A stretch of DNA of 64,000 nt from a virus (IMGVR_UViG_3300028591_000098:99396-163395), one strand, 5' to 3'. Counted from the stretch's first letter, positions 59,523-63,201 are shown. The notes: generated by a model from the sequence alone, not told the origin. A program made the numbers and translations.

Positions 59523-59751
59523 CAGAGTAAACTGGGAGTCGAACCCAATATTTCACGGTTACCCCGTGCGTTATTTCTTACTTAATTGAAAACTCGGTAT
59601 CACGTTCATACCTAAAAACAATTATCTTAACTAATGTTCACCTTAATCTAAGTTTATACGATCTAAGCCATAACCTACGATTTATGCAACTTGCCGCCGC
59701 TTGCTAAGTTTATTACATAGTAGTAAACATTATCCGTTTAACTCTTACCCC
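59523..59751 (-). ncRNA. tRNA-like RNA with ~160-nt D-loop expansion and 5-nt anticodon loop
   Basis: GGGGTAA/TTACTCT, D stem GTTA/TAAC, CACGG-GGTAA-CCGTG, T loop TTCGACT. Confidence 0.75.
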
Positions 59752-59759
59752 TGGTTTTG

Positions 59760-59845
59760 CACGGAGGGAAGGATTCGAACCCACGTGAGAGATAAACTCT
59801 GGCGGTTTTGGAGACCGCTCCCTTCGACCACTCGGGCACCTCCGC
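59760..59845 (-). tRNA. tRNA-Trp(CCA) with long variable arm
   Basis: GCGGT-CTCCAAA-ACCGC; variable stem AGAG/CTCT; G73. Confidence 0.85.
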
Positions 59846-60136
59846 ATATAGCGAGAAATTCAACTCCTTTCACTGAGCGAGGAATCCGTTCTAGAATACA
59901 GAATCCACAACATAATAAGAAAAATTCTACATTAACTTATTACTTACCCCAATCATATTTAGAGGCATATTCTCGCTTTATAAAAGATCATAGGAATTTT
60001 TTCTGGCTGAGCCCTGTTTAGTTCCTTATTTAATGCCGACCTACTTGTTATACCACTTACGGTTTTTAGTCTCAACAGGTTGACTTAACTCTAACCCGGC
60101 AACCAGTGTCATGACCAAGTTCTCAAAAATTCCATG

Positions 60137-60207
60137 TTGGACCACCGGGATTCGAACCCAGACCGTAGGAACCAAAATCCTATGTACTACCCTTATACTA
60201 TGGTCCA
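60137..60207 (-). tRNA. tRNA-Gln(UUG)
   Basis: TAGGA-TTTTGGT-TCCTA; U1-A72. Confidence 0.92.
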
Positions 60208-60486
60208 ATTAACAATATATTTACTAAGTATGGGTTAAGATTGCTTACTGTTTGTAAACCCCAATTGCTTCACGTTTACCCATGCAGACGTATCACTCAT
60301 CACAAGTCTTACACCATACGATTAACCATACGTACTTAGATGTTAATGAGGTATTTATAACTACCTTTAATCATTTATTCCATCGATGCTTTCTCCTTTG
60401 CAAGATTTCCTAAAGTACTAACTCACAAAAGCCAATTTCCAGTACTTAACTTTATTAGTTTCTCATACTTAGTAGTTTGTTTCTTG

Positions 60487-60560
60487 TGGAGCCAGTGAGG
60501 ATCAAACTCACGACCTCAACATTGCAAGTGTTGTGCTCTAGTCAACTAAGCTACGACCCC
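60487..60560 (-). tRNA. tRNA-Ala(UGC)
   Basis: CAACA-CTTGCAA-TGTTG; G3-U70. Confidence 0.9.
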
Positions 60561-60567
60561 ATAAATA

Positions 60568-60709
60568 AATATTCAAAGAACGTTCGATAAAAGTCCATAG
60601 AGTTGGATTCGAACCAACGACCTCCAGTTTTCAACGCTGGTGTTCTACCCCTGAACTACCCTTCCAAAATTGGCGGAAGAAGTAACTCTTATCTACACTA
60701 TTGAAATAT
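60568..60709 (-). ncRNA. Y-RNA-like (YrlA-like) tRNA mimic
   Basis: TGTAG-ATAAGAGT-TACTTC 5' strand pairing with ACTTTTAT-CG 3' strand, enclosing D, anticodon-like and T arms. Confidence 0.55.
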
Positions 60710-60710
60710 G

Positions 60711-60806
60711 CTCCTCTGCGTGGATTCGAACCACCTCTATATATGAACGTTCATAACCAATATAGAGAACCAAGGACTTATTTTTCGGCGCCTTATAAAC
60801 AGAGAA
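60711..60806 (-). ncRNA. tRNA-like RNA lacking a normal anticodon loop
   Basis: TTCTCTG/CAGAGGA acceptor and GTGG-TTCGAAT-CCAC T arm; atypical middle hairpins. Confidence 0.6.
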
Positions 60807-60812
60807 ATAATG

Positions 60813-60893
60813 AGCCGGAAGTCAGATTCGAACTGACGTGTCATACGAGTCGGGTTACAAATCCGATGGAGTCGACCACTGTCCCATTCCGGC
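60813..60893 (-). tRNA. tRNA-Thr(UGU) with enlarged variable region
   Basis: GCCGGAA/TTCCGGC; TCGGA-TTTGTAA-CCCGA. Confidence 0.75.
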
Positions 60894-61111
60894 AAATGTA
60901 AGTTTTGACTGAACTTACAAAACAGACTATGAACGTCTTCATAGATTTTAAATTTGTGATGACAACCTGATATAAATCATCACCGAATTGGTTAAGAGTC
61001 GTTCGGGTTAGGTTGATAGGCTAGTTATTTACCACTGCCTTACTGAGCCTCCCAATTCATTTTACCTATCATTCTACTTCTGTCAGGTACATGCCCTATT
61101 ACGGGACCGAG

Positions 61112-61195
61112 TTGCGGCCTTTGGAATCGAACCAAAACAAGCATTTTCTGTCTCAAGGTTATGAGCCTTGCATCTTACCATTAGACTAGACCGCG
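61112..61195 (-). tRNA. tRNA-Met(CAU), initiator-like, with long variable region
   Basis: C1:A72 mismatch; CAAGG-CTCATAA-CCTTG; 17-nt variable region. Confidence 0.8.
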
Positions 61196-61257
61196 ATATT
61201 TTATTATATATTAATGATAGTATTTTAAATTTTTAAATTCAATACCGTCATTATTTG

Positions 61258-61400
61258 CTACCTCTGAGGGACTCGAACCCCCGACCCACTGCTTAACAGG
61301 CATTAACATTGAAGTAACTCTAACCTACAACATTCTTACGAAGTAACAGCGACTAAAGTGTGTACAATAAAAGCTGCTCTACCAACTGAGCTAAGAGGTA
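61258..61400 (-). tRNA. tRNA-Asn(GUU) interrupted by 70-nt insertion (61302-61371)
   Basis: Removing the insert restores GCTGC-CTGTTAA-GCAGT and a 73-nt cloverleaf. Confidence 0.85.
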
Positions 61401-61405
61401 ATTTG

Positions 61406-61652
61406 TAGCGGCCATGGGAGTCGAACCCATTATCTGTACCTTCCCGGCACCGTGATCATTTCCAAAACAAGTAACTTGGCTCATCACTTTATCCGCGGCT
61501 TGCTTGGCCTCTAAACTTGTTTATTTCTTGATGTTGTTAAATACTTTTTTAAAGATATTTACCCGTCGATAAATAGAGCTCTTATTATAAATATGTAACA
61601 TAAAGTCCGCCGACACATCAAAATAGAAACTTATCCGTTTCACTCGGACACT
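61406..61652 (-). ncRNA. tRNA-like RNA with ~180-nt D-loop expansion and 5-nt anticodon loop
   Basis: AGTGTCC/GGCCGCT, D stem GTGA/TCAC, GTGCC-GGGAA-GGTAC, ATGGG-TTCGACT-CCCAT. Confidence 0.75.
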
Positions 61653-61661
61653 GAAAGTTTG

Positions 61662-61730
61662 TTGGAGTCGAAGATTCGAACTTCACCTCGGACGCGCGAT
61701 CACGTGTGCTTACCGTTACACCAAACTCCG
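61662..61730 (-). ncRNA. tRNA-like RNA with 4-nt anticodon loop
   Basis: Normal acceptor, D and T arms; ACGTG-ATCG-CGCGT. Confidence 0.65.
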
Positions 61731-61747
61731 ATTCTTGCAAGAATTAG

Positions 61748-61818
61748 CGGGAGTAGAGGGAATCGAACCCACACCTGGTGATTAACAGTCACATGCTCGA
61801 CCTTCGAGCTATACTCCC
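61748..61818 (-). tRNA. tRNA-Asn(GUU)
   Basis: TGTGA-CTGTTAA-TCACC; G73. Confidence 0.9.
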
Positions 61819-62021
61819 AATAAAATATCTAACCCACTTAGCCTTCCGTGATATGGTCCACTAAACTATCCTTTGGCCTCGAATGTTTCGCGAGTTGTAC
61901 ACCTCCTAACACCTGTACCACCAACGTAACCGATTTCCTTTGCGTTCACCATAACAAGTAGATGTAACCCTACTACTAGCATTGTACTCTCATCAGTTAC
62001 TCCGTCCTGATTAGATATTAG

Positions 62022-62165
62022 ATGATGGAGTGGGATTCGAACCCACGACCCGTTGCTTAAAAGGCATTAACATTGAAGTAACTCTAACCTACAACATCCA
62101 TAGGAGTAACAGCGACTAAAGTATGAAACAATTAAAACTGCTCTAACCATCTGAGCTATCCATCA
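62022..62165 (-). tRNA. tRNA-Lys(UUU) interrupted by 70-nt insertion (62066-62135)
   Basis: Removing the insert restores GTTGC-CTTTTAA-GCAAC. Confidence 0.85.
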
Positions 62166-62173
62166 AATATATT

Positions 62174-62995
62174 TTATTTATTAATCTTCTTAGATAAATT
62201 AATAAATGTATAATTATCTTCAACTATATCTTGATTCTTAAAATCAAATAATAATTCCGGATTTATTGGTTTTCCACACAAACGAGTTTCAAAATGTAAA
62301 TGTGCACCAGTACTTCGTCCAGTATTTCCAACTAATCCAATAGGTTCTCCCGAAGAAATTGTTTGATTTGGTTTAACTAATTGTTTAGACATATGTCCAT
62401 AATAAGTTTCTAATCCATTATGATGTCTAATTACAACAAAATAACCATATCCTCTTGGATCATTTTTAACAATACGAACTTTTCCGGAAAATGCTGCATA
62501 TATAGTATCACCTTTATGTCCATCAATATCTACTCCTTGATGCATTCGTTTCCATCTTTTACCATACTTGGATGTTATTAATGTTTTTTTAACTGGCATT
62601 GAAAAACCTGTCATATGAACAGTATACTTTTCTGGAATATAACTTGATTTATAATGAGTCATTTCATTATCAAAATTATCATATAAATCAAATCCTGTCA
62701 TATGATATTTTTTCATTTCTATTGTTATAGGTGCAGCTTTTGCTATCAACTTATTATCTTGTGCATATCCAAAAGATAATGTAAAAAATATAAAAATCAT
62801 CAATAATATGTATTTTATATTATTCTGATCATTCTTAAATAAAGAGATTATAGGTTTTAGTGTATTTCCATTCTTTAAATTATCTTCCTTTATGCCTTGA
62901 ATATATGAAATACTAAATATACTCAAAAACATAATCATAAGTATTACTCCCATCATAATAAACAATGAAGCCGTGCTAAATATATTAGCCATCAT
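62174..62995 (-). CDS. M23-family metallopeptidase with N-terminal TM segments
   Basis: HQGVD, YYGHM, TGRSTGAHLHFE. Confidence 0.92.
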   Translation of the reverse strand: MMANIFSTASLFIMMGVILMIMFLSIFSISYIQGIKEDNLKNGNTLKPIISLFKNDQNNIKYILLMIFIFFTLSFGYAQDNKLIAKAAPITIEMKKYHMTGFDLYDNFDNEMTHYKSSYIPEKYTVHMTGFSMPVKKTLITSKYGKRWKRMHQGVDIDGHKGDTIYAAFSGKVRIVKNDPRGYGYFVVIRHHNGLETYYGHMSKQLVKPNQTISSGEPIGLVGNTGRSTGAHLHFETRLCGKPINPELLFDFKNQDIVEDNYTFINLSKKINK

Positions 62996-63121
62996 ATAAA
63001 TTATGCTACGCTGAGAATCTACATAATTTAATGAATATCTCTTCTAAAAAACTACTATATTTAATATTTCTCTTACCGTAGAAATATTAATGTGCTTTAT
63101 TTTTAAATATTTTTGTTATAG

Positions 63122-63201
63122 TTGCGAATTCAGGAGTCGAACCTGATATCTCGTAGGTTATGAGCCTAGAATGATTTATATATCCGTTTCACTCATTCGC
63201 G
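63122..63201 (-). tRNA. tRNA-Met(CAU), initiator-like, with slightly enlarged D loop
   Basis: C1:A72; D loop AACGGATATATAAA; TAGG-CTCATAA-CCTA. Confidence 0.75.

What the first reader, a model, noticed from the sequence alone, without database searches (positions are those of the whole stretch)
59523..63201. Candidate new RNA family: tRNA scaffolds with giant D-loop expansions and 5-nt anticodon loops
Seen: RNAs at 59523-59751 and 61406-61652 share G8-A9, a covarying D stem (GTTA/TAAC vs GTGA/TCAC), D-loop start AACGGATAA, a 160-180-nt structured insert containing AGCAAGC(G/C)GCGG, a covarying 5-bp stem with loop GG(T/G)AA, RATA and TTCGACT. The Met-like tRNA at 63122-63201 has the same GAGTGAAACGGATA start with only a small expansion, suggesting the ancestor. 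They cannot decode and do not fit tmRNA topology, where the insert replaces the anticodon arm. The first has G3-U70. Inference: the tRNA fold serves as a stable, processed carrier for a cargo RNA, or as a decoy.
Basis: partly seen in the sequence, partly recalled or inferred. Interest (0 to 1): 0.87.

Follow-up and report, generated by a model that had tools for sequence, protein, structure and literature searches.

The report
Phage tRNA-shaped RNAs with giant inserts
Two conserved RNA genes in a giant gut/rumen phage's tRNA cluster keep the outer shape of a methionine tRNA, have lost the anticodon, and carry a folded 155-175-base domain in the D arm; they form a new, uncatalogued pair of RNA families of unknown function that resemble phage T4's long-unexplained "species 1" RNA.

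Summary
T1 (59523-59751, minus strand) and T2 (61406-61652, minus strand) each have an acceptor stem, a 4-bp D stem, the D-loop start AACGGAUAA, a short hairpin where the anticodon arm would be, a RAUA variable region and a UUCGACU T arm. A 156- or 175-nt insert sits directly after AACGGAUAA. Pattern scans found 14 distinct T1 and 19 distinct T2 sequences in viral and metagenome contigs. Both folds show strong covariation: 97% of cells paired, and 24 and 23 pairs with changes on both sides, against 2-7 in slid controls. The scaffold descends from a widespread phage tRNA-Met(CAU) lineage that already tolerates 5-27-nt hairpins at the same D-loop site. The "anticodon" loop varies from 3 to 10 nt with no conserved triplet, so these RNAs cannot decode. 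They match no Rfam family or GenBank phage. They are not the lineage's tmRNA, because a near-complete relative has a canonical one. The same phage lineage encodes SmpB, RtcB, Tpt1, an RNA ligase and a Ro60 homolog. T2 carries a covarying 6-nt palindrome in an apical loop, a possible dimerisation site. Function is untested. The closest known RNA is T4 RNAC. This scan noted a similar RNA earlier in a coliphage (e1-255712).

The parts
59523..59751 (-). T1: tRNA-shaped non-decoding RNA, 229 nt. It has an 8-bp terminal stem (59751-59744 with 59531-59524) carrying two invariant G.U pairs, and discriminator G at 59523.
   Evidence: Sequence. 14-sequence alignment A3. Covariation: 97.0% paired, 24 pairs changed on both sides.
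59574..59729 (-). T1 D-arm insert, 156 nt. It consists of a closing helix (core UUAC/GUAA), domain A (a long, strongly covarying hairpin) and domain B (UAAUUG...CAAUUA around the invariant hairpin GGUAU-GAACGUG-AUACC).
   Evidence: RNAalifold, stem scan, pair counts (helix 5 has 10 of 14 pairs changed on both sides).
59554..59568 (-). T1 anticodon-position hairpin CACGG-GGUAA-CCGUG. The stem is kept and the loop is not.
   Evidence: A3 columns 187-206: 3 of 5 pairs changed on both sides; loop length and sequence vary.
61406..61652 (-). T2: tRNA-shaped non-decoding RNA, 247 nt. It has a 7-bp acceptor stem with a conserved irregularity at 5:68, then G8 A9, and discriminator A at 61406.
   Evidence: Sequence. 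19-sequence alignment A4. RNAalifold recovers the cloverleaf plus insert without constraints. 97.1% paired, 23 pairs changed on both sides.
61456..61630 (-). T2 D-arm insert, 175 nt. It consists of a closing helix GUUUCU/GGAAAU, domain A (61619-61529, closed by GAUGUG/CAUCA) and domain B (61522-61465, closed by AAACAAG/CUUGUUU).
   Evidence: closing helix: 3 of 6 pairs changed on both sides; domain B outer helix: 4 of 7.
61493..61498 (-). 6-nt palindrome CCGCGG in the 14-nt apical loop of T2 domain B. It is CCCGGG in 14 relatives, CCGCGG in 4 and CCGCGA in 1.
   Evidence: A4. The tree needs at least 2 switches. No consistent partner within the same molecule was found (inspection of A4).
61436..61450 (-). 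T2 anticodon-position hairpin GUGCC-GGGAA-GGUAC. All five pairs covary, and the loop is 3-10 nt in relatives.
   Evidence: helix 11 (5 of 5 pairs changed on both sides).
63122..63201 (-). Met-like tRNA(CAU) with a C1xA72 mismatch and a 14-nt D loop (AACGGAUAUAUAAA). It is a member of the parent tRNA family.
   Evidence: (relatives in cultured phages are annotated tRNA-Met).

Best explanation
T1 and T2 are two sister families of stable, non-decoding RNAs that evolved from a phage tRNA-Met(CAU) gene.

Shown: the acceptor stem, D stem, G18-G19-containing D-loop start, T arm and a 5-bp stem in the anticodon position are all kept, so the tRNA L-shape and elbow can still form.

Inferred: this lets host RNase P and 3'-end enzymes cut the RNAs out of the polycistronic tRNA-array transcript and keeps them stable.

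Shown: the anticodon loop has been abandoned.

Shown: the D arm is lengthened by a closing helix that carries two folded domains (156 and 175 nt), placed at the solvent-exposed D-loop site just after AACGGAUA.

Inferred: this insert is the working part. It acts as a binding platform for protein or RNA. In T2, a palindromic apical loop probably pairs two molecules by a kissing interaction.

Inferred from gene content only: the RNAs most likely act with the lineage's own tRNA and RNA quality-control proteins (Ro60 homolog, RtcB, Tpt1, RNA ligase, SmpB/tmRNA). The exact role is unknown.
For: - Fold and conservation: 14 T1 and 19 T2 distinct sequences. Both folds are 97% paired, with 24 and 23 pairs changed on both sides, against shuffled means of 15.3 and 8.2 and slid controls of 2-7. 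RNAalifold recovers the cloverleaf plus insert without constraints.
- Non-decoding: neither ARAGORN nor the Rfam tRNA model calls them. The anticodon-position loop is 3-10 nt and not conserved, while its stem covaries at all five pairs in T2.
- Descent from tRNA-Met: GAGUGAAACGGAUA is the D arm of a widespread phage tRNA(CAU). Members carry 5-27-nt hairpins at the same D-loop site and keep CAU. The size distribution is trimodal.
- Same architecture in T1 and T2: closing helix, domain A, domain B.
- Palindrome: kept through CCGCGG <-> CCCGGG switches, at least twice on the tree.
- Context: they always lie inside tRNA arrays. RtcB is in the window's own genome and SmpB in the window itself. A 98%-complete relative encodes a Ro60-like protein, Tpt1, RtcB and an RNA ligase. 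Ro60 homologs are present in all three large contigs that carry T1 or T2.
- Precedent: T4 RNAC from the T4 tRNA cluster folds as terminal stem + long hairpin in the D-arm position + non-decoding hairpin + T arm.
Against:
- Processing by RNase P/Z, stability, CCA addition and dimerisation are all inferred.
- The link to Ro60 and RtcB is co-occurrence in the same genomes only. The genes are not adjacent, and the window's own 64%-complete contig has no TROVE gene.
- A 6-nt palindrome could also be a DNA-level or protein-binding site.
- The starred (well-supported) branches of the tree do not force more than one switch.
Confidence: 0.6

Rival explanations
1. Y-RNA-like ribonucleoprotein scaffolds. 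T1 and/or T2 are bound by the phage Ro60 homolog, as YrlA is bound by Rsr. They would tether it to tRNA-handling or RNA-decay enzymes, with the tRNA-like body as the second module.
For: - Bacterial and phage Y RNAs carry tRNA-like domains (PMC4201824; PMC12135203).
- A Ro60-like TROVE+vWA protein is encoded in the 98%-complete relative that carries T1, and in both large contigs that carry T2.
- In more distant relatives the Ro60 gene sits inside a tRNA array, with sub-threshold YrlA hits (E about 1e-5) next to it.
- RtcB, the usual operon partner of rsr-yrlA, is also phage-encoded.
Against: - There is no GNCGAA/CGAA motif and no long bulged terminal stem in T1 or T2 (inspection of A3 and A4).
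- The Rfam YrlA model scores only 21 bits here, and that hit spans T2's T arm plus the next tRNA's D arm, which any tRNA-tRNA junction can mimic.
- A covariance model of the array's Y-like 70-nt tRNA inserts does not hit T1 or T2. Those inserts are the better Ro60-ligand candidates.
- Ro60 is not adjacent to T1 or T2.
Confidence: 0.15
2. D-loop intron, or cargo release. The insert is excised, and possibly circularised, by a phage- or host-encoded endonuclease plus RtcB or the RNA ligase/Tpt1. The tRNA-like exons would serve only as a processing platform, and the excised insert would be the product.
For: - The same array has tRNA-Asn and tRNA-Lys with ~70-nt inserts in the 5' strand of the anticodon stem.
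- Lak megaphages have 'enigmatic' tRNA introns (PMC6784885).
- The lineage encodes RtcB, Tpt1 and an RNA ligase, the enzymes of both known tRNA-splicing ligation routes.
Against: - No splicing endonuclease (PF01974) was found in three genomes.
- There is no bulge-helix-bulge motif at the insert borders (inspection).
- No Rfam group I or self-cleaving ribozyme hit.
- No insert-less T1 or T2 allele was seen, and no intermediate sizes.
- The spliced exons would be a tRNA without an anticodon.
- The small hairpins at the same site in decoding tRNA-Met look like permanent expansions.
Confidence: 0.12
3. Decoy or sponge for host tRNA-targeting defences or tRNA-binding enzymes. The RNAs would present the tRNA elbow and acceptor without entering translation.
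For: - The intact elbow and acceptor are combined with loss of decoding.
- The anticodon-position hairpin evolves much faster than the rest of T2, as might occur in an arms race.
- The lineage invests heavily in tRNA repair genes.
Against: - A decoy for an anticodon nuclease should keep a specific anticodon loop; here the loop is the least conserved part.
- A decoy does not explain why a 156-175-nt insert is conserved at over 85% column identity with conserved loops.
Confidence: 0.08
4. Divergent tmRNA. T1, with its invariant G3.U70, would be the alanine-charged partner of the phage SmpB.
For: - SmpB is encoded in the window (44170-44592, minus strand) and in both relatives tested.
- The G.U at the third pair of T1's terminal stem is invariant in 14/14 sequences while its neighbours covary.
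- The UUCGACU T loop is common in tmRNAs (own knowledge).
Against: - The 98%-complete relative has a canonical tmRNA (69 bits, tag ANDELVDDAWLNSWEYRMAA) far from T1.
- ARAGORN and the Rfam tmRNA model do not call T1 or T2.
- The only short frame in T1 (xTT[M/L] followed by stop codons) is broken by a 1-nt indel in L233/L234 and overlaps the covarying closing helix.
- The T2 frame is not conserved in L221.
- The four-way junction with a D stem and an anticodon-position hairpin is not tmRNA topology.
Confidence: 0.03

Closest known systems
Phage T4 RNAC (species 1 RNA, rnaC) and RNAD, small stable RNAs of the T4 tRNA cluster
   Same: Both are encoded inside a phage tRNA array. When folded here, RNAC shows a terminal stem, a ~60-nt hairpin where the D arm would be, a non-decoding hairpin where the anticodon arm would be, and a canonical T arm CCGGG-UUCGAAU-CCCGG. 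Its function is still unknown (PMC3014915, PMC9697503).
   Different: There is no sequence similarity beyond the T arm and no AACGGAUAA D-loop remnant. T4's expansion is a single hairpin of ~60 nt, not a two-domain insert of 156-175 nt. RNAC is 139 nt against 229-247 nt here. Common descent was not shown.
Phage tRNA-Met/fMet(CAU) family with the D arm GUGA-AACGGAUA(A)-UCAY, including members with a 20-27-nt D-loop hairpin
   Same: The acceptor/G8-A9/D-stem/D-loop start, RAUA variable region and UUCGACU T loop are the same. The extra helix is inserted at the same D-loop position. The window's own copy is at 63122-63201.
   Different: These keep a 7-nt CUCAUAA-type anticodon loop and are decoding tRNAs. 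T1 and T2 have lost it, and their insert is about seven times larger and multi-domain.
YrlA / bacterial and phage Y RNAs (Rfam RF02553)
   Same: Non-decoding RNAs with a tRNA-like T arm, D arm and acceptor mimic fused to another functional module. They are genomically linked to Ro60 and RtcB, and homologs of both are encoded by this phage lineage.
   Different: YrlA is circularly permuted relative to tRNA: its ends lie in the Ro-binding stem that replaces the anticodon arm. T1 and T2 keep tRNA-like ends, and the extra module is in the D loop. There is no CGAA motif, and the Rfam score is far below threshold (21 against 69 bits).
tmRNA (SsrA)
   Same: Acceptor stem plus T arm enclosing a large structured insert. 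T1 has G.U at the third pair. SmpB is phage-encoded.
   Different: tmRNA has no D stem and no anticodon-position hairpin. It has pseudoknots and a tag reading frame. The lineage has a separate canonical tmRNA.
tRNA 'introns' of Lak megaphages and the ~70-nt inserts of this array's tRNA-Asn and tRNA-Lys
   Same: Large inserts at non-canonical positions of phage tRNA genes in gut/rumen megaphage arrays (PMC6784885).
   Different: Those sit in or near the anticodon stem of tRNAs that keep an anticodon. The covariance model of the 70-nt insert does not match T1 or T2.

Membership tests
tRNA (RF00005): functional decoding tRNA | 7-nt anticodon loop with a conserved U33 and an anticodon triplet | tested here: not met
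   Loops are GGUAA and GGGAA here, and 3-10 nt and unrelated in 31 homologs. There is no RF00005 hit at E<=5 and no ARAGORN call.
tRNA (RF00005): functional decoding tRNA | Acceptor stem, D stem, T arm and G18G19/T-loop elbow elements | tested here: met
   All helices are supported by pairing and covariation. The GG in AACGGAUAA and the T loop UUCGACU are invariant.
tmRNA (RF00023) | Tag reading frame with resume codon and stop, conserved as coding | tested here: not met
   The candidate frames are broken by an indel (T1: L233, L234) or an early stop (T2: L221), and they overlap covarying helices.
tmRNA (RF00023) | Match to the tmRNA covariance model / ARAGORN tmRNA call | tested here: not met
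   Only the 17-nt T arm matches (10-16 bits against a 47-bit threshold). ARAGORN -m finds none. A true tmRNA of the lineage scores 69 bits elsewhere.
tmRNA (RF00023) | G3.U70 alanine identity pair | tested here: inconclusive
   T1 has an invariant G.U at the third pair of an 8-bp stem, but the true 5' end is unmapped. T2 has U.G or C-G at 3:70.
YrlA / Y RNA (RF02553) | Ro-binding stem formed by the RNA's 5' and 3' ends, with a GNCGAA-type motif | tested here: not met
   The terminal stems are 7-8-bp acceptor-like helices, and neither family has a CGAA motif (A3, A4). The Rfam score is 21.2 bits against a 69-bit threshold, and the hit spans two genes.
YrlA / Y RNA (RF02553) | Binding to Ro60/Rsr | not testable with these tools
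   The only evidence is co-occurrence of a Ro60 homolog in the same phage lineage.
tRNA-cluster stable RNAs of phages (T4 RNAC type) | Encoded within a phage tRNA array; terminal stem plus T arm; expanded D-arm region; no anticodon | tested here: met
   T1 and T2. T4 rnaC was folded for comparison. This is a descriptive class, not a homology family; no sequence homology was found.
Archaeal-type (bulge-helix-bulge) tRNA intron | BHB motif at the exon-intron borders, and a splicing endonuclease | tested here: not met
   The borders are a plain closing helix flanked by AACGGAUAA and GA/GAAA. PF01974 is absent from three genomes.
Group I intron or small self-cleaving ribozymes | Match to Rfam models | tested here: not met
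   No hit at E<=5 across 58900-64000.

The most novel reading that the evidence does not exclude
T1 and T2 are founding members of a class of 'tRNA-anchored ornate RNAs'. In this reading, megaphages use an intact tRNA elbow and acceptor as a handle for processing and possibly aminoacylation (T1 carries an invariant G3.U70 and might be alanylated). They graft onto the D loop a domain that self-associates (T2 through a kissing palindrome) and recruits the phage's own Ro60/RtcB/Tpt1 RNA-repair machinery to tRNAs. This would also explain the function of T4 RNAC-type RNAs, which has been open since the 1970s.
Probability: 0.15. Interest if true: 0.85.

Novelty: new variant of a known kind. Interest (0 to 1): 0.68.

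Why it matters
- Stable, tRNA-shaped, non-decoding RNAs in phage tRNA clusters have been known since T4 species 1 RNA, but none has an assigned function.
- T1 and T2 now have 33 distinct sequences, strong covariation and a clear evolutionary path: tRNA-Met, then a small D-loop hairpin, then a giant two-domain insert with loss of the anticodon. This gives the class a well-defined comparative model.
- They lie in megaphages that also encode SmpB/tmRNA, Ro60, RtcB, Tpt1 and an RNA ligase. That context yields testable hypotheses: Ro60 binding, RtcB-dependent processing, alanylation and dimerisation.
- They show that the D loop can carry a large functional domain without destroying the tRNA body, which is useful for RNA engineering.
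- tRNA gene finders and Rfam currently miss them, so phage tRNA arrays are under-annotated.

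Tried and rejected
- **Rfam.** Searches at gathering and permissive thresholds found no family for T1, T2 or the long spacers.
- **tmRNA.** Rejected.
- **Shared motif.** The AGCAAGC(G/C)GCGG string is at non-homologous places and is not conserved in T1 relatives.
- **T1/T2 inserts as expanded copies of the array's 70-nt Y-like tRNA insert.** They share AGUUACUU-like strings, but covariance model R1 of that insert finds only its own two copies and a weak third (60679-60708), not T1 or T2.
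- **Partner within T2 for the palindrome.** The GUCGGCGGAC hairpin fits only the CCGCGG variant, not CCCGGG (inspection of A4).
- **Complementarity between the variable anticodon-position loop and the variable part of domain A.** Inconsistent across sequences.
- **T1 helix UAAUGUUUAC/GUGAACAUUA from the single-sequence fold.** Not supported: a U-A pair becomes G.G in L197. It is replaced by the covarying closing helix 26-31/173-178.
- **Ro60 adjacency.** The gene is not within the loci that hold T1 or T2.
- **Splicing endonuclease.** None found.
- **Intermediate insert sizes of 95-125 nt.** None in viral contigs.
- **Bacterial genomes.** No T1 or T2. The single hit is an arm-less tRNA-Met-like gene in a Dorea MAG.
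- **GenBank phages.** No match.
- **Supplements of the phage structured-RNA catalogue (PMC10690425).** Not held, so overlap with its unnamed candidates could not be checked.

Full report
**Setting.** The window is the last 64 kb of a 163-kb IMG/VR phage contig (24% G+C, estimated 64% complete). From 63935 down to 59260 on the minus strand lies a tRNA array. ARAGORN and the Rfam tRNA model call nine or ten tRNAs there, and none at the two stretches in question. The array is unusual throughout. It holds tRNAs with long variable arms, two tRNAs with ~70-nt inserts in the 5' strand of the anticodon stem, several 200-290-nt spacers of raised G+C, a TAG-suppressor tRNA, and two protein genes (an M23 peptidase and a zinc-finger/DUF559 nuclease-like protein).

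**The observation.** Read on the minus strand, T2 (61652-61406) runs as follows:
- AGUGUCC, G, A
- GUGA, then AACGGAUAA
- a 175-nt insert
- UCAC, G
- GUGCC-GGGAA-GGUAC, then AGAUA
- AUGGG-UUCGACU-CCCAU
- GGCCGCU, A

T1 (59751-59523) is built the same way, with GUUA/UAAC as the D stem, a 156-nt insert and the hairpin CACGG-GGUAA-CCGUG. The Met-like tRNA (63201-63122) has the same GAGUGAAACGGAUA start, a 14-nt D loop, a CUCAUAA anticodon loop and a C1xA72 mismatch.

**Where the scaffold comes from.** An exact-pattern scan for GAGUGAAACGGAUA in viral contigs returned dozens of phage tRNA genes with a CAU anticodon, the same D arm, a RAUA variable region and a UUCGACU T loop. In cultured phages such as PVP-SE1 and Lactobacillus and Vibrio phages, relatives are annotated tRNA-Met. 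In this family the D loop is a hot spot. Beside the 9-nt form there are forms with 5-8 extra bases, and five forms with a 20-27-nt hairpin inserted directly after AACGGAUA, all keeping CAU. The distance from G8 to the T arm is trimodal, at 45-54, 67-72 and 195-225 nt. A scan for 95-125-nt gaps found nothing.

**Homologs and structure.** Gapped pattern scans of viral and metagenome contigs, followed by sorting, gave 14 distinct T1 and 19 distinct T2 sequences. One contig (L220) carries both, as the window does. The host contigs include records of 254, 376 and 435 kb. Mean column identity is 84-85%.

For T2, unconstrained RNAalifold returns these helices:
- the acceptor stem
- the D stem
- a closing helix (GUUUCU/GGAAAU)
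- domain A (closed by GAUGUG/CAUCA, with two small hairpins)
- domain B (AAACAAG/CUUGUUU, then GGYC/GRRCC, then a 14-nt apical loop)
- the anticodon-position hairpin
- the T arm

Counting pairs gives 97.1% of cells paired and 23 of 55 pairs changed on both sides. The shuffled mean is 8.2 (sd 1.9), slid partners give 3-7, and 0/500 shuffles reach the observed value.

For T1, I added the D stem and a closing helix found by a covariation scan to the RNAalifold result. This gives 97.0% paired and 24 of 62 pairs changed on both sides, against a shuffled mean of 15.3 (sd 1.7) and slid values of 2-5.

T1 and T2 share one plan: D stem, AACGGAUAA, closing helix, domain A, domain B, 2-4 nt, then the D stem 3' strand. 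In effect the D arm is lengthened, and the old D-loop bases become an internal loop that can still offer G18-G19 to the T loop.

- The AGCAAGC(G/C)GCGG string is a coincidence. In T1 it is part of a paired strand of domain A and changes freely among relatives. In T2 it is the conserved apical loop of domain B.
- The GG(U/G)AA pentaloop is not a family feature. In T2 all five stem pairs of that hairpin covary, and the loop ranges from 3 to 10 nt.
- T1's terminal stem is 8 bp with two invariant G.U pairs. If numbered from its first pair, the G.U at 3:70 is invariant in 14/14 sequences while the next pair switches between G-C and A-U.
- T2's acceptor stem has a conserved irregularity at 5:68 (UxC, or a bulged U in L221).

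**What it is not.**
- *Not a decoding tRNA.* See the loop evidence above.
- *Not a tmRNA.* This deserved a serious look, because the window itself encodes SmpB (44170-44592, minus strand; E = 2e-56) and T1 has G3.U70. However, the 98%-complete relative G001, which carries a 90%-identical T1, has a canonical 409-nt tmRNA elsewhere (69 bits; tag ANDELVDDAWLNSWEYRMAA). The short frames in T1 and T2 are also not conserved as coding, and they overlap covarying helices.
- *No recognisable intron.* There is no bulge-helix-bulge motif, no splicing endonuclease in three genomes, no group I or ribozyme model hit, and no insert-less alleles.
- *Not detectably related to the array's 70-nt tRNA inserts.* A covariance model of those inserts scores 64-66 bits on its own two copies and nothing on T1 or T2.
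- *No match in GenBank phages or bacterial genomes*.

**Context that bears on function.** The window's genome encodes RtcB. G001 encodes the following:
- Tpt1 and RtcB side by side, 6 kb from T1
- an RNA ligase
- a Ro60-like TROVE+vWA protein

Close Ro60 homologs (80-83% identity) are present in both other large contigs that carry T2, though not next to it. In more distant relatives the Ro60 gene sits inside a tRNA array whose tRNAs carry the same Y-like inserts. There the Rfam YrlA model gives sub-threshold hits at E about 1e-5. Bacterial and phage Y RNAs are known tRNA mimics linked to Ro60 and RtcB (PMC4201824, PMC12135203, PMC7790460). So this phage lineage owns a full RNA quality-control and repair set, and several kinds of tRNA-derived non-decoding RNAs. 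Which RNA goes with which protein is not known.

**A possible dimerisation site.** The 14-nt apical loop of T2 domain B (AAG-CCGCGG-AUAAA) holds a 6-nt palindrome flanked by purines. Fourteen relatives have CCCGGG, four have CCGCGG and one has CCGCGA. The switch needs two simultaneous changes that preserve self-complementarity. On a tree built without these columns it occurs at least twice, although the well-supported branches alone do not force more than one event. No partner within the same molecule fits both variants. This is the signature expected of a loop-loop kissing dimer. It is an inference, not a result.

**Closest known.** It has a terminal stem, a ~60-nt hairpin in the D-arm position, a non-decoding 10-bp hairpin and a canonical T arm (z = -4.6). 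RNAC and RNAD come from the T4 tRNA region and their roles are still unknown (PMC3014915; PMC9697503). T1 and T2 are therefore best filed as new, much larger variants of this old and unexplained kind, with a different and traceable origin in tRNA-Met. No sequence homology to RNAC was found.

**Verdict.** T1 and T2 are real, conserved, structured RNA families not in Rfam.
- Most likely (about 0.6): stable, non-decoding, tRNA-handled RNAs whose D-arm domain is the functional module.
- Specific roles remain open: Ro60-type RNP 0.15, intron/cargo release 0.12, decoy 0.08, tmRNA-like 0.03.

No expression data could be obtained.

Noticed in passing
window 44170-44592 (-): Phage-encoded SmpB (PF01668, E = 2e-56). 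It is also present in two related phage records. The 98%-complete relative additionally has a canonical 409-nt tmRNA (G001:103338-103746, tag ANDELVDDAWLNSWEYRMAA). No tmRNA lies in the sequenced 163 kb of the window's own genome.
   Followed up: partly
window 61267-61399 (-) and 62021-62166 (-): tRNA-Asn(GUU) and tRNA-Lys(UUU) each carry a ~70-nt insert in the 5' strand of the anticodon stem. The core hairpin is ACUUUAGUC...GGUUAGAGU followed by UACUUC. The same insert family occurs in many tRNAs of related arrays and next to the Ro60 gene in L262. The covariance model R1 is specific for it.
   Followed up: partly
window 61660-61735 (-): A tRNA-like gene directly upstream of T2, with the same placement in relatives. 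It has an acceptor, D arm and T arm, but the anticodon region (ACGUGAUCGCGCGU) cannot form a normal 7-nt loop. Neither ARAGORN nor Rfam calls it.
   Followed up: no
window 60598-60720 (-): The tRNA called by Rfam at 60598-60665 has a 5' acceptor strand that does not pair. A Y-like motif (UGUAGAUAAGAGUUACUUC) plus a hairpin lies just upstream, and a possible 5' acceptor strand (UCAAUAG) lies beyond it. This suggests an insert between the acceptor stem and position 8.
   Followed up: no
window 61819-62020, 60894-61111, 60208-60485, 59846-60135 (-): Four 200-290-nt spacers between tRNAs, with raised G+C (about 40% against 24% for the genome) and no ORF or Rfam hit. They may be further structured RNAs.
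   Followed up: no
G000:C1:61137-62336 (-), outside the window; L251:6097-7963 and 12199-12942: RtcB is in the window's own genome. In the near-complete relative, Tpt1 (RNA 2'-phosphotransferase) and RtcB lie side by side 6 kb from T1, with an RNA ligase (PF09414) nearby. Together these are the enzymes of both known tRNA-splicing ligation routes.
   Followed up: partly
L250:5411-6859; L262:3001-4401: A Ro60-like protein (TROVE + vWA) is encoded by related megaphages. In the more distant L261, L262 and L264, the gene is embedded in a tRNA array, with sub-threshold YrlA hits (E about 1e-5) at L262:2513-2613 and 2693-2769.
   Followed up: partly
window 63210-63842 (-): An ORF inside the tRNA array with an N-terminal C2H2-type zinc finger and a DUF559/MTES_1575 nuclease-like domain. 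It may be a homing endonuclease, comparable to SegB in the T4 tRNA cluster.
   Followed up: no
L270:555-620 (Dorea MAG contig CAKRAH010000001.1): A tRNA-Met-family gene with the acceptor, D arm (AACGGAUAAAUAAA) and T arm, but no anticodon arm at all.
   Followed up: no
L275:3523-3613 (Salmonella phage PVP-SE1 tRNA array): An unannotated tRNA-like gene ending in GAGAG-UUCGAUU-CUCUC-CUUCUCC-G-CCA, in a 209-nt gap between annotated tRNA-Gln and tRNA-Ser. Two other gaps of ~190 nt in the same array are also unannotated.
   Followed up: no
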